This document shows, one piece after another, positions 39,376 through 42,056 of a stretch of DNA of 61,486 bases (the stretch's first letter is position 1; each line of letters opens with the position of its first letter). The position numbers and the translations under genes were made by a program. This DNA is from an uncultured Candidatus Saccharibacteria bacterium (GTDB taxonomy: Bacteria > Patescibacteriota > SICC01 > CAYSOT01), in contig CAYSOT010000003.1 of assembly GCA_964432765.1 (NCBI GenBank), positions 1-61,486 of the forward strand. Direction: 5' to 3'. The notes beneath the pieces are model-generated. The model worked only from the letters and a program-made list of their open reading frames with translations, did no database searches and had not been told where the DNA came from.

Positions 39376-40520
39376 CTAATCCTCGTCATTAAGTATCCGG
39401 CTGGAATTGCACAGGCGATCCCAAGGATGTAAATCGCATGCGCGGGTATGAAGAGCGAAAGCAGTACAAGCAATAGTAGAAATATTAGGGCTGTCGCCTC
39501 GTGTGCCATCTCAATAGCTGCGATGTATTCATAACGTGGTGATTCGTCGGCGTGCCGATAATAGCGATCCATGAACGGAGTAACATAGAGCGATTTCCCG
39601 ACACCTGTGAAAAGATTCGCTCCAAAGACGTGAAGGCCGTTTTGTGCCAAAAGGCGAATTAAACTTGCCACATTGATAAATCCGTATCCTTCCCACAAGA
39701 AGTGTCTAACTCCCTTGCGCTGCTGCCTCCAACCTACATACAGAGAAGCCGCCGTTGCCCCAATTGTCACTACCGATGAAAGAATTCCTACCCCTGCGTA
39801 GCTTGAGATAAACGCGTACACAGCAATTGGCCAAATAATCGAGTCAGCAACATAGAGCATCCCATTTCCACCATTACCAATCATGTCGTCGCGATACTTT
39901 TTCCATTTAAACTGAGACATATCGATGCTGCGACGCTTTACGATTTCGTGATTACCAAGGAGCGGCAGGCTGGCAATTAGCATTACTGCTGCGGCCACAG
40001 CGTACGTCACGGTGATCCCGGTTGTAGTTGCGATTATTCCACCGATTGCGGGGGCTAGCCCAGTTACTATCGCCATAACCGCATAAAGCATTCCGATTTG
40101 TTTGCTTGATTTCTCGTGGGCGCGAGCCTTGGAGAAGTTGGCGTGAAAAGCTGCCCAATAAATTGCTCGTGAGAAGCCGCCCGGCAGTGCCGCGAACAAC
40201 CACCACGACCCGAGCTGACTAATGAATGGGAGGAGCGCAAACTGCATCACCATGAGGATGTTCCCTATGACCATGCCATGATTTGCCCCGATTTTGCCGA
40301 TAATCCGCAGCGAGAGTGTTTGAGTCACAAGTGAAGCCAGCTGTCCCCACGCCATGAAAAGCAGGACTTGGGTAAGACTATATCCTTTCGTAAGAAGAAA
40401 GATGGGGATAAATAGTCCAACAATCCCGAAGCTCATCGTCGTGAGCGAATGCACCCAAAACATTCGCCTTAGTTCCGTCAGACGAGGGAGATGGTAATGA
40501 ATGTGGTAGTGGTCAGCCAT
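39372..40520 (-). CDS. MFS transporter (paralog 3)
   Basis: Multi-TM; GKIGANH loop; YYRHADESPR. Confidence 0.85.
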   Translation of the reverse strand: MADHYHIHYHLPRLTELRRMFWVHSLTTMSFGIVGLFIPIFLLTKGYSLTQVLLFMAWGQLASLVTQTLSLRIIGKIGANHGMVIGNILMVMQFALLPFISQLGSWWLFAALPGGFSRAIYWAAFHANFSKARAHEKSSKQIGMLYAVMAIVTGLAPAIGGIIATTTGITVTYAVAAAVMLIASLPLLGNHEIVKRRSIDMSQFKWKKYRDDMIGNGGNGMLYVADSIIWPIAVYAFISSYAGVGILSSVVTIGATAASLYVGWRQQRKGVRHFLWEGYGFINVASLIRLLAQNGLHVFGANLFTGVGKSLYVTPFMDRYYRHADESPRYEYIAAIEMAHEATALIFLLLLVLLSLFIPAHAIYILGIACAIPAGYLMTRIR

Positions 40521-41127
40521 GATTCTTTGGGAAGAGCGGATTACCGCGGACTACCTTTACCCCTGCTGGCAGCTTCTCCCAAGCAGTAATGTCGCCCAAA
40601 TTTTGAACGGTTTCCGATATTCCGATCCGACGTTGTAATTCCTCGGCTGTATTTGGCAAAATCGGTGCATAGAGCACAGCCAAGTTTCCAACCACCTGGG
40701 CCAAAGTGAAAAGAGTATTAGCTTTTTCTTGCCCCTCTTGTCTGAATGGCTGCTTCTGCTCGATATACTTATTAGCTCGCGATGTAAGTGCGTGTATTGC
40801 TTCAATCCCCTCGGCCAAACGACATTCATCGAAGAGAAGTTTGACTCGTTGCCACGTTTGGCCAATTTCCTCTCGCACTTCGGGGTCTATTTCCCCTTTT
40901 GGCACAAACCCCTCGTAGCCGGAATCAATCATCGCGATGACACGGGAGGCAAGATTCCCGAAATCGTTGGCGAGCTCGGAATCATATACTTCATTAAAGT
41001 GATTTTCCGAGTAATCACCGTCGCCCGCGAAAGGAAGCGCTCTGGTTAGGTAATACCTCACAGGATCGACTCCTTTTTCTTCAAACAGCTTGAAGGGATC
41101 AATCACATTACCTTTTGATTTACTCAT
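40513..41127 (-). CDS. metG: Methionine--tRNA ligase, C-terminal (anticodon-binding) part
   Basis: [11 protein letters not shown]...VRYYL...[11 protein letters not shown]...[10 protein letters not shown]. Confidence 0.85.
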   Translation of the reverse strand: [204 protein letters not shown]

Positions 41128-41159
41128 TTTTTGACCTTTTGCATCGACTTACTCATTTT
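41110..41159 (-). repeat. Diverged tandem duplication encoding KMSKS twice (29-nt period)
   Basis: AAAATGAGTAAGTC-GATGC-AAAAGGT-CAA, then AAAATGAGTAAATC-AAAAGGT. Confidence 0.9.
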
Positions 41160-42056
41160 TGCGCCATCAATGGTGATGTGACCGTGCACATAGAGAAGTT
41201 TAGGCAGCGGTATTCCTGCACCCATGAGCATTGCGGGCCAGATAGCAGCATGAAAACGTATGATATCTTTCCCGATGATGTGTACGTTTGCTGGCCAGAA
41301 ACGCGAGAAGAGCGCTTCATCCCAACCATAACCGATGCCAGTTAGATAGTTTGTTAACGCATCGCACCACACATACATTCGCTGCGACTCGTCACCCGGA
41401 ACAGGTACCCCCATCGTCAGCTTGTCGGCGGGCCTTGAGAAACTAACATCCTGGAGCCCCTCTTTAAGGAGTCCTAGAATTTCATTGCGCCTTGTTTCTG
41501 GTTGAATCTGAAATTCACCGGAGTGGATAGCATCGGCAATTTTATCGGTGAAGGCGGAGAGTTTGAATAAGTAATTCTCCTCGCTTCTATGCTCGAGGGG
41601 CGTTTGATGTACCGGACAAAGGTTATCGACAATTTCTTTCTCCGTGTAAAACTGCTCACAGTCGACGCAATAACTTCCTGAATATTCCCCTTTGTAGATA
41701 TAGCCCGCTTGATCAAGCGCTTGCCAGACCTTTGTTGCCCCTGGATGATGGTGCCCTTCGTCTGTTGTGCGAATAAAAGCATCGTTGGTCACTTCGGCAA
41801 CTTCTGTCAGACGCTTAAACTCGCTGGCATATTTATTCGCGAGTTCCTTTGGCTCAATATTTTCTTTTTGAGCGACCTTAATCAACTTGAGTGTGTTTTC
41901 GTCCGTACCGGTCAAAAAGAACGTGTCGTCACCAAGCAAACGATGCCACCTGGCTAAAACGTCCACTTGTAGAAGCTCGATCGCGAAACCAATGTGCGGC
42001 GCACCATTCACATACGGGATAGACGTCGTTATGTAATATTTATTGGTTTTTGTCAT
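41124..42056 (-). CDS. metG: Methionine--tRNA ligase, N-terminal catalytic part
   Basis: [28 protein letters not shown]..CPVH knuckle, [15 protein letters not shown], KMSKS then stop. Confidence 0.9.
   Translation of the reverse strand: [310 protein letters not shown]

What the first reader, a model, noticed from the sequence alone, without database searches (positions are those of the whole stretch)
40513..42056. MetRS split exactly at a duplicated KMSKS motif
Seen: ORF1 ends [13 protein letters not shown], and ORF2 begins MSKSKGNV via an ATGA overlap (41124-41127). The two KMSKS-coding copies have a 29-nt period and differ by a synonymous AAG/AAA change and a 5-nt GATGC insertion. Without that insertion the duplication would be an in-frame 24 nt. 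Divergent copies argue against a simple assembly stutter, and ATGA coupling is used elsewhere in this operon (39372-39375, 37067-37070). Both halves look intact. Known: MetRS is essential, and split synthetases exist (Aquifex LeuRS, Nanoarchaeum AlaRS). Inference: either a two-subunit MetRS (catalytic plus anticodon-binding), or a -1 shift on AAAAAA at the UGA giving one protein with a doubled KMSKS loop.
Basis: partly seen in the sequence, partly recalled or inferred. Interest (0 to 1): 0.85.

Follow-up and report, generated by a model that had tools for sequence, protein, structure and literature searches.

The report
metG split by 29-nt insertion
In this Saccharibacteria contig the essential methionyl-tRNA synthetase gene is cut into two overlapping reading frames by a 29-base insertion that repeats the KMSKS-coding stretch; no relative shares the split, so it is a one-off event, either a possibly viable two-piece enzyme or an error, and not an established split synthetase.

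Summary
On the minus strand, ORF1 (41124-42056, 310 aa) ends ...[14 protein letters not shown]. ORF2 (40513-41127, 204 aa) starts [11 protein letters not shown], and the two overlap in ATGA. Both are MetRS halves.

Against the closest intact homologue (504 aa, 86% identity, same gene order), the only length difference is a 29-nt insertion at 41117-41145. The split is unique:
- 76 of 76 complete metG genes from related species are single ORFs.
- No same-species sequence exists in the collections searched.
- No other gene in the window is broken.

The ATGA overlap needs no selection, because ATG-AGT hides a TGA in the +1 frame. I found no frameshift-stimulating structure and no rate acceleration in either half.

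New lead: in ORF2's frame the insert reads [35 protein letters not shown] is the ValRS motif and differs from the MetRS form (DGxKMSKS). One patch templated from valS would explain every "divergence" between the copies. This cannot be verified, because valS is not in the window.

My estimates:
- Genuine one-step fission giving a translationally coupled two-piece MetRS: about 0.4.
- Chimeric or assembly artefact: about 0.3.
- Non-functional allele: about 0.2.
- Fusion by slippage: under 0.1.

Reads and the genome's valS would decide.

The parts
41124..42056 (-). metG ORF1, 310 aa: Rossmann-fold catalytic domain, CP/zinc-knuckle insertion, first KMSKS, then a 6-residue out-of-frame tail MQKVKK and TGA
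   Evidence: Pfam PF09334 2.6e-80 and NCBIfam PRK12267 positions 2-307; aligns to T. thermophilus MetRS 4-304 and Brucella MetRS 25-328
40513..41127 (-). metG ORF2, 204 aa: starts at the Met of the second KMSKS ([11 protein letters not shown]), then the stem-contact fold and the helical anticodon-binding domain
   Evidence: PF09334 C-terminal end, PF08264 and PF19303, NCBIfam PRK12267 positions 300-510; aligns to T. thermophilus MetRS 298-481
41117..41145 (-). 29-nt insertion relative to intact homologues, GATGCAAAAGGTCAAAAAATGAGTAAATC (one of several equivalent placements). It shifts the frame by +2. In ORF2's frame, together with the next bases, it reads (V)[17 protein letters not shown].
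   Evidence: Removing 29 nt gives a 1515-nt gene collinear with L001-L007. The peptide is the ValRS motif in more than 119 species.
41145..41159 (-). first KMSKS-coding copy (AAA ATG AGT AAG TCG), in native metG context ...ATT GAT GGC GCA = IDGA
41116..41130 (-). second KMSKS-coding copy (AAA ATG AGT AAA TCA), read in ORF2's frame
41124..41127 (-). ATGA stop-start overlap: the ORF1 TGA lies inside the ATG-AGT of the second copy
41127..41132 (-). A6 run (AAA AAA in ORF1, ending at the A of the ORF2 ATG). It is the only candidate site for -1 ribosomal slippage or +1A transcriptional slippage that would fuse the ORFs.
   Evidence: no stimulatory structure downstream
41135..41139 (-). SD-like AAAGG, 7 nt upstream of the ORF2 ATG; it is the Lys-Gly codons of the first copy's KSKG remnant
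   Evidence: duplex with anti-SD -3.4 kcal/mol, within the range of the operon's other coupled genes (-0.9 to -6.3)
42065..42070 (-). TACAAT -10-like box ending 8 nt before the ORF1 ATG; probable promoter of a leaderless metG operon mRNA
   Evidence: the same box sits at -13/-14 before leuS, uvrD, rplI and ctpA; the stricter sigma-70 scan did not call it

Best explanation
A single, lineage-specific 29-nt insertion hit the KMSKS-coding site of metG in this Saccharimonadia (Patescibacteria) genome.

Origin of the insert. It is an imperfect second copy of the KMSKS region. Its upstream part reads as the ValRS form of the motif ([17 protein letters not shown]). The most economical origin is therefore one templated patch copied from the paralogous valS gene during repair or replication. 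Entry would be out of register at a GTC microhomology. Return would be in register through the shared [12 protein letters not shown]-coding stretch.

Consequence for reading frames. The insertion shifts the frame by +2. The upstream frame then stops at the TGA hidden in ATG-AGT of the second copy, and the Met of that copy becomes the first available start. In one step this creates two ORFs joined by ATGA.

Inferred mechanism. Ribosomes terminating ORF1 reinitiate at the overlapping AUG, helped by the weak SD-like AAAGG. The 310-aa catalytic piece ends in KMSKS plus 6 residues. The 204-aa piece consists of MSKS, the stem-contact fold and the anticodon-binding domain. The two reassociate non-covalently into an active MetRS, as artificially split MetRS does.

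Shown versus inferred:
- Shown: the anatomy, the uniqueness of the split, and the intactness of both halves.
- Inferred: the reality of the insertion in the cell, the valS origin, the coupling, and the activity.
For: - The anatomy, and 29 nt as the only indel against a fully syntenic intact homologue.
- Both halves cover complementary MetRS profile positions with an 8-position overlap.
- There is no excess of lineage-specific amino-acid changes in either half: 16-21 in the window lineage against 13-18 in the sister lineage, with nine outgroups.
- metG is the only disrupted gene among about 45 ORFs of the 61-kb window checked for full-length domain coverage. All syntenic neighbours have near-identical lengths to those of the relative. 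The assembly is therefore not indel-prone.
- A 29-nt imperfect insert joined by 3-nt microhomology is not what de Bruijn graph misjoins or homopolymer errors produce (inference).
- [17 protein letters not shown] is encoded exactly in the valS genes of more than 119 species, including Saccharibacteria. ValRS identity was confirmed with scores above NCBIfam cut-offs. The 113 MetRS relatives examined have [D/E/G]-G-x-KMSKS and never DAKGQ.
- ATGA coupling and comparable SD strength are used by the downstream genes of the same operon.
- From the literature: split MetRS and other split essential aaRS can work. See Burbaum & Schimmel 1991, listed in PMC10450160; an engineered split MetRS in PMC5620534; and a viable split PheT in M. 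pneumoniae in PMC12494982.
Against: - It is a singleton. No second assembly of this species exists in the collections, so nothing confirms the junction independently.
- No relative shares the split, so there is no evolutionary evidence that a two-piece enzyme is maintained.
- Synonymous sites are saturated against the nearest relative. Selection since the event therefore cannot be measured, and the rate test is equally compatible with a very recent lesion or an artefact.
- Frameshifted metG fragments whose C-half is called from MSKS occur as plain errors in public contigs (L088, L089).
- The break separates the two strands flanking the catalytic KMSKS loop, a more delicate place than an interdomain linker.
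- The valS origin rests on a peptide-level coincidence. My estimate of the chance probability is about 0.01. There is no donor sequence to check.
Confidence: 0.4

Rival explanations
1. Artefact. The insertion is not in the organism's genome. It comes from a chimeric molecule (MDA or library template switching between metG and valS, or locally), or from a consensus or polishing stutter that entered a low-coverage assembly. The real gene would be a normal 504-aa metG.
For: - The junction is seen in one contig only.
- A broken single-copy essential gene is a priori suspicious.
- The two copies differ by error-like changes: a homopolymer length, a 5-nt indel and substitutions.
- Broken metG genes from plain errors or gaps exist in public contigs.
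- The absence of relaxed selection is exactly what an artefact predicts.
Against: - No other indel or broken gene appears in 61 kb, and no other comparable stutter.
- A graph misjoin needs a shared (k-1)-mer, not 3 nt.
- A PCR chimera between metG and valS would join in register and continue into valS. It would not return to metG after about 30-50 nt (inference).
Confidence: 0.3
2. A real but non-functional allele. The insertion exists in the DNA but inactivates metG. It would be tolerated because it is a recent or minority variant captured by the assembler, or because another MetRS gene outside the 61-kb window supplies the activity.
For: - The event is unique to this lineage, and no relative keeps it.
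- No secondary adaptation is visible. The tail MQKVKK, the ATGA and the SD-like site are all direct by-products of the insertion.
- The break lies in the catalytic loop.
Against: - The 80 related genomes each showed one metG locus, and the window holds no second copy.
- Small Saccharibacteria genomes normally carry single aaRS genes (general knowledge).
- Assemblers report the majority path.
- There is no further decay in 1.5 kb.
Confidence: 0.2
3. One polypeptide by recoding. A -1 ribosomal slip of tRNA-Lys on C-AAA-AAA-UGA, or RNA-polymerase addition of one A in the A6 run, fuses the ORFs. The product is a 514-aa MetRS with a 10-residue insert and two KMSKS motifs ([19 protein letters not shown]).
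For: - An A6 run directly abuts the stop, and the -1 frame continues as MSKS.
- An AlphaFold2 model of this fusion keeps the whole MetRS fold (mean pLDDT 90.6, pTM 0.90). Only residues 299-317 are unconfident, so the extra segment sits in a surface loop.
Against: - It is not a canonical X-XXY-YYZ heptamer.
- There is no significant downstream structure (z -1.65 and -0.34).
- The SD-like element is 2 nt from the run, not the roughly 10 nt that stimulates -1 shifts in dnaX (established knowledge).
- A6 is too short for efficient transcriptional slippage (established knowledge).
- The site is not conserved.
- At best this would give a minor product alongside the two pieces.
Confidence: 0.07
4. 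Origin variant, independent of function. The insert is a purely local imperfect tandem duplication (23-24 nt), followed by a 5-nt insertion, a 1-nt homopolymer change and 1-2 substitutions. The ValRS-like reading would then be coincidence.
For: - All pieces (AAAAATGAGTAARTC, AAAAGGT, GATG(G)C) exist locally.
- [14 protein letters not shown] alone is also common in MetRS relatives.
Against: - It needs 4-5 independent events within 30 nt, against one event for a templated patch.
- The six bases the duplication does not explain happen to spell Asp-Ala and complete the Gln codon (the Lys-Gly codons come from the duplicated bases), giving the exact ValRS motif. I estimate the chance of this at about 1e-2.
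Confidence: 0.35

Closest known systems
Artificially split E. coli MetRS (Burbaum & Schimmel 1991, Biochemistry 30:319, reference seen in PMC10450160; engineered two-promoter split MetRS, PMC5620534)
   Same: The same enzyme is expressed as an N-terminal catalytic piece and a C-terminal anticodon-binding piece that must reassemble non-covalently. This gives a precedent that MetRS tolerates bisection.
   Different: Those splits were engineered, at other positions. From memory, they lie in the connection after the nucleotide-binding fold and inside the CP domain; I did not verify this here. The split described here is natural or accidental, lies inside the KMSKS loop, and leaves the motif on both pieces.
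Naturally split aminoacyl-tRNA synthetases: Aquifex aeolicus LeuRS alpha/beta and Nanoarchaeum equitans AlaRS (general knowledge)
   Same: An essential aaRS is encoded by two ORFs whose products form the enzyme.
   Different: Those splits are fixed features of their genomes and are biochemically validated. This one is seen in a single contig, is absent from 76/76 related species, has adjacent overlapping ORFs, and has a duplicated junction.
Split essential PheT tolerated in Mycoplasma pneumoniae (PMC12494982)
   Same: It shows that, in a reduced genome, an essential aaRS subunit can be cut in two and stay viable when the downstream piece starts at an internal Met.
   Different: That case is class II, an interdomain linker, and driven by a transposon promoter. 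This case is class I, a catalytic loop, and relies on stop-start coupling.
Ordinary frameshifted metG in metagenome contigs (L088, L089)
   Same: The C-terminal ORF is called from the Met of KMSKS.
   Different: Those are a small deletion about 35 codons upstream of KMSKS (L088) and a scaffold gap (L089, whose contig also has another broken gene), without duplication of the motif or an ATGA junction.
dnaX-type programmed -1 frameshifting and A-run transcriptional slippage
   Same: An A-run at the frame junction, where a -1 event would give a full-length product.
   Different: There is no canonical heptamer, no stimulatory hairpin, no SD at the right distance and no conservation.

Membership tests
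Methionyl-tRNA synthetase (class I; Pfam PF09334, NCBIfam PRK12267/TIGR00398) | Catalytic Rossmann fold with a HIGH-type motif and a zinc knuckle in the CP insertion | tested here: met
   ORF1: PF09334 2.6e-80, PRK12267 positions 2-307. PHIGF and CVDC...CPVH are visible and shared with relatives.
Methionyl-tRNA synthetase (class I; Pfam PF09334, NCBIfam PRK12267/TIGR00398) | KMSKS signature followed by GNV(I/V)DP | tested here: met
   Present twice: KMSKS at the end of ORF1 and (K)[11 protein letters not shown] at the start of ORF2.
Methionyl-tRNA synthetase (class I; Pfam PF09334, NCBIfam PRK12267/TIGR00398) | Helical anticodon-binding domain | tested here: met
   ORF2: PF08264 and PF19303 above their cut-offs.
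Methionyl-tRNA synthetase (class I; Pfam PF09334, NCBIfam PRK12267/TIGR00398) | Single polypeptide scoring above the equivalog cut-off | tested here: not met
   369.4 and 152.7 bits against a cut-off of 598 for PRK12267; the gene is in two frames.
Naturally split (two-gene) aminoacyl-tRNA synthetase | Split maintained in related genomes | tested here: not met
   0 of 76 complete metG genes of related GTDB species are split, and the 86%-identical relative is intact in 7 contigs.
Naturally split (two-gene) aminoacyl-tRNA synthetase | Both pieces under purifying selection after the split | tested here: inconclusive
   No rate acceleration, but dS is saturated against the nearest relative, so the period since the event cannot be isolated.
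Naturally split (two-gene) aminoacyl-tRNA synthetase | Pieces associate and aminoacylate tRNA | not testable with these tools
   Needs co-expression and an aminoacylation or complementation assay.
Programmed -1 ribosomal frameshift site (dnaX type) | Slippery heptamer X XXY YYZ in the zero frame | tested here: inconclusive
   C AAA AAA UGA: only the A-site/last-codon Lys can re-pair perfectly.
Programmed -1 ribosomal frameshift site (dnaX type) | Stimulatory downstream structure and/or an SD about 10 nt upstream | tested here: not met
   Fold z-scores -1.65 and -0.34; the SD-like AAAGG is 2 nt from the run.
Programmed -1 ribosomal frameshift site (dnaX type) | Conservation of the site | tested here: not met
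   The site exists only because of the insertion and is absent in all relatives.
Translationally coupled overlapping genes (ATGA) | Stop of the upstream ORF overlaps the start of the downstream ORF on one transcript | tested here: met
   ATGA at 41124-41127; no promoter-like or terminator-like site lies at the ORF1/ORF2 junction.
Translationally coupled overlapping genes (ATGA) | Usable ribosome-binding context | tested here: inconclusive
   AAAGG 7 nt upstream, -3.4 kcal/mol, similar to the other coupled genes of the operon; expression was not measured.
Sequencing or assembly artefact | Other indels or broken genes in the same contig | tested here: not met
   About 45 ORFs have full domain coverage, and neighbours' lengths are near-identical to those of the relative.
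Sequencing or assembly artefact | Reads do not support the junction | not testable with these tools
   There are no reads, and no second assembly of the species.

The most novel reading that the evidence does not exclude
A natural, one-step fission of an essential class I aminoacyl-tRNA synthetase exactly at its catalytic KMSKS loop. It would be caused by a short patch copied from the paralogous valS gene. That patch supplies, all at once, a second signature motif, a hidden stop, a start codon and an SD-like site. The Saccharibacterium would then live on a translationally coupled two-piece MetRS.
Probability: 0.3. Interest if true: 0.6.

Novelty: new member of a known kind. Interest (0 to 1): 0.33.

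Why it matters
If the insertion is genuine and the organism depends on it, it would be the first natural MetRS split at the KMSKS loop. It would also show how a gene fission can be viable from the moment it arises: the duplicated junction gives both pieces the motif, and the hidden TGA with the Met codon gives instant stop-start coupling. A valS-templated patch would further be a rare documented case of ectopic template use between paralogous synthetase genes.

If it is an artefact or a dead allele, the practical lesson is for annotation. 'C-terminal MetRS' ORFs that start at MSKS are a routine by-product of any upstream frame error.

Tried and rejected
1. UGA recoding (codes 4/25). Rejected: the C-half is in a different frame, and TGA serves as the stop in the operon's ATGA overlaps.
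2. The window's own leuS as donor. It shares the 14-mer AAAATGAGTAAGTC and encodes [11 protein letters not shown]. Rejected: the flanking codons differ (GGC CAG against GGT CAA; ADGQ against DAKGQ).
3. Independent copies of the species. Exact-protein look-ups, a gapped DNA pattern that would catch both the split and unsplit alleles in GTDB genomes and JGI metagenomes, and the exact 50-mer all came back empty.
4. Recurrent natural splits. A search with ORF2 returned many MSKS-starting 213-219-aa proteins. The two on long contigs turned out to be a frameshift upstream of KMSKS and an N-gap, so they are not true splits.
5. dN/dS against the nearest relative. Not usable: pS is about 0.9, which is saturation plus a composition shift.
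6. Frameshift stimulators. None found.
7. Other stutters in the window. Tandem Repeats Finder and a 10-mer near-repeat scan found nothing comparable.
8. Full text of Burbaum & Schimmel 1991. Not held, so details of that split are from memory only.
9. The organism's own valS. Not retrievable: it is not in the window, and the species is not in the DNA collections.
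Full report
**1. What is there**

The gene lies on the minus strand. Read 5'->3', the junction is:

...ATT GAT GGC GCA AAA ATG AGT AAG TCG ATG CAA AAG GTC AAA AAA TGA...

- ORF1 (41124..42056, 310 aa) ends [15 protein letters not shown].
- One base earlier, ATG AGT AAA TCA AAA GGT AAT GTG ATT GAT CCC opens ORF2 (40513..41127, 204 aa, [12 protein letters not shown]...).
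- The two share ATGA at 41124-41127.
- The KMSKS-coding 14-mers sit at 41146-41159 and 41117-41130, 29 nt apart.

Pfam and NCBIfam identify ORF1 as the MetRS catalytic part (PRK12267 positions 2-307). They identify ORF2 as the end of the catalytic domain plus the anticodon-binding domain (positions 300-510). The two therefore overlap by the KMSKS positions. Against solved structures, ORF1 matches T. thermophilus MetRS residues 4-304 and ORF2 matches 298-481. The only refinement is that the copies also differ in A-run length (A5 against A6).

**2. Comparison with relatives**

The window belongs to the Saccharimonadia (Patescibacteria), judging from the record titles of the closest genome loci and protein hits.

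- The closest protein, P0002, is 86% identical over ORF1. It is a normal 504-aa MetRS found on 7 contigs from several samples and assemblers, all with identical gene sequence.
- Its gene order matches the window exactly: rsmA, hydrolase, rsmI, metG, three MFS genes, tatD, Nramp, C39 peptidase. Neighbour lengths are the same or nearly so.
- The window gene is 1544 nt against 1515 nt. Removing 29 nt (41117-41145, or an equivalent placement) restores a collinear 504-codon frame with no other indel.
- Among 80 related species genomes, all 76 metG genes that are complete on their contig are single ORFs of 472-551 aa with both halves in one frame. In three of the four cut by a contig end, both halves are also in one frame; the fourth ends before its C-half.
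- No same-species sequence, split or intact, exists in the protein collection or the DNA collections.

The split is therefore a singleton.

**3. Is the gene decaying?**

A relative-rate test with nine outgroups shows no excess of window-specific amino-acid changes. The whole-gene counts are 13-21 window-specific changes against 13-18 P0002-specific changes, and eight of the nine outgroups also show no excess in the C-half taken alone (P0006: 9 v 1). Synonymous sites are saturated against P0002, so the time since the insertion cannot be examined separately. The result fits a functional split, a very recent lesion, or an artefact.

**4. Quality of the contig**

About 45 ORFs across the window were scanned with Pfam. 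All show full-length domain coverage, and no adjacent pair hits the same family. No other imperfect tandem stutter was found. metG is the only broken gene in 61 kb. This argues against an indel-prone assembly but cannot exclude a single chimeric molecule.

**5. What the junction does and does not tell**

- The ATGA overlap is not evidence of selection. Met-Ser encoded as ATG-AGT contains TGA in the +1 frame. Any upstream insertion of length 2 mod 3 therefore terminates there, and the Met of KMSKS is the first start in the native frame. In ORF2's frame a TAA lies 7 codons upstream and no other start codon intervenes.
- Public contigs show the trivial version of this. Many C-terminal MetRS fragments are called from MSKS. 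The two on long contigs were a frameshift about 35 codons upstream (L088) and a scaffold gap (L089).
- The special feature here is that the insertion repeats the motif. Both pieces keep it, and the Lys-Gly codons of the first copy (AAAGG) land 7 nt before the new start. The anti-SD duplex is -3.4 kcal/mol, within the range of the operon's other ATGA-coupled genes.
- One mutational event is thus enough to create a plausible translationally coupled gene pair.

**6. Origin of the 29 nt**

Read in ORF2's frame, however, the segment is GTC GAT GCA AAA GGT CAA AAA ATG AGT AAA TCA AAA GGT AAT GTG ATT GAT CC. This translates as [18 protein letters not shown].

The context is ...[39 protein letters not shown].
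- Two of these genes score as valS above NCBIfam cut-offs.
- One unrelated valS even contains the 29-mer exactly (L099). I take this only as showing that the sequence is valS-typical.
- MetRS relatives have [D/E/G]-G-x-KMSKS. GQ-KMSKS occurs, but DAKGQ occurs in none of 113.

A single patch templated from valS would explain all the 'differences' at once. Entry would be out of register with GTC microhomology, and return would be in register through the shared [12 protein letters not shown]-coding stretch. I estimate the chance that the six bases unexplained by duplication would complete a ValRS-type motif at about 1e-2. I therefore favour this origin at roughly 65:35 over a purely local duplication. 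The organism's valS is not in the window, so this is a lead, not a result. The window's leuS is not the donor.

**7. Mechanistic alternatives for expression**

No promoter-like or terminator-like site was found at the ORF1/ORF2 junction. A TACAAT box ends 8 nt before the ORF1 ATG, as for four other operon-first genes. This suggests a leaderless operon transcript.

For a -1 shift or a +1A transcript slip on the A6 run:
- There is no canonical heptamer.
- There is no significant downstream structure (z -1.65 and -0.34).
- The SD-like element is too close to the run.
- A6 is short for RNA-polymerase slippage (established knowledge).

An AlphaFold2 model of the hypothetical 514-aa fusion keeps the MetRS fold (pLDDT 90.6, pTM 0.90), with only residues 299-317 unconfident. 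A minor fused product would therefore probably be tolerated, but nothing suggests it is made efficiently.

**8. Would two pieces work?**

Literature support is indirect:
- Burbaum & Schimmel 1991 assembled MetRS from an artificially split gene. The reference was seen in PMC10450160; the full text is not held.
- An engineered split MetRS is used for cell-selective labelling (PMC5620534).
- A split essential PheT is viable in M. pneumoniae (PMC12494982).

Here the cut lies inside the mobile catalytic loop, between the two strands that flank it. That is riskier than a linker.

**9. Verdict**

The feature is a one-off 29-nt insertion, not a conserved split-synthetase design. My probabilities are:
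- Genuine one-step fission giving a coupled two-piece MetRS: about 0.4.
- Artefact: about 0.3.
- Real but non-functional allele, or compensation by another gene: about 0.2.
- Fusion by slippage as the main route: under 0.1.

Novelty: a new, unconfirmed member of a known kind (split or frameshifted aaRS genes). Interest is modest (0.33). It would rise to about 0.6 if reads confirm the junction and the valS origin, and if activity is shown.

Noticed in passing
window 7066-9948 (-): The leucyl-tRNA synthetase (960 aa) carries an inserted NUDIX hydrolase domain (Pfam PF00293, residues 372-494, E 7.5e-14). It sits directly after the CP1 editing domain (219-364). The Nudix box GGGRDDGEDPVDAARREVAEETGY is visible. 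This is an unusual domain architecture for LeuRS.
   Followed up: partly
window 30666-32414 (-): The alanyl-tRNA synthetase is only 582 aa. It has the catalytic domain (5-445) and a tRNA_SAD motif at the very end (531-577), with no C-Ala/DHHA1 region. The next gene downstream is ftsA-like, so this is a short AlaRS rather than a split one.
   Followed up: no
window 42065-42070, and upstream of the starts at 9948, 46383, 53842 and 55487 (all -): TACAAT sits exactly 13-14 nt before the start codon of five operon-first genes (metG, leuS, uvrD, rplI, ctpA). That accounts for 5 of the 25 TACAAT occurrences in the window. It suggests leaderless or near-leaderless mRNAs, while internal genes use GGAGG-type SD sites or ATGA coupling.
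   Followed up: partly
window 37067-40520 (-): Three tandem MFS transporter paralogues (382, 386 and 382 aa) with His-rich N-termini (MADHYHIHYH, MSDAHIHRHQVHH, MHLPHHEQHHLH) lie directly downstream of metG. They are joined by 4-nt, 1-nt and 8-nt overlaps. The arrangement is conserved in the closest relative.
   Followed up: no
L088 2380-2600; L089 2400-2500: Public metagenome contigs contain metG 'C-terminal' ORFs called from the Met of KMSKS. The causes are an upstream frameshift (L088) and a run of N (L089; that contig also has a split GHMP kinase). Many 213-219-aa database 'MetRS' entries that start with MSKS are of this kind.
   Followed up: yes
window 41103-41115 and 41169-41181: A 13-nt inverted repeat (85% complementary) brackets the duplicated KMSKS region: GGTCACATCACCATT ... 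AAAGGTAATGTGA on the coding strand. A hairpin here might favour polymerase stalling or template switching at this site. The fold is not significant (z -0.34).
   Followed up: partly
window 56609-57871 (+): A Y-family (DinB/ImuB-type, Pfam IMS + IMS_C) translesion DNA polymerase gene is present in this small genome.
   Followed up: no
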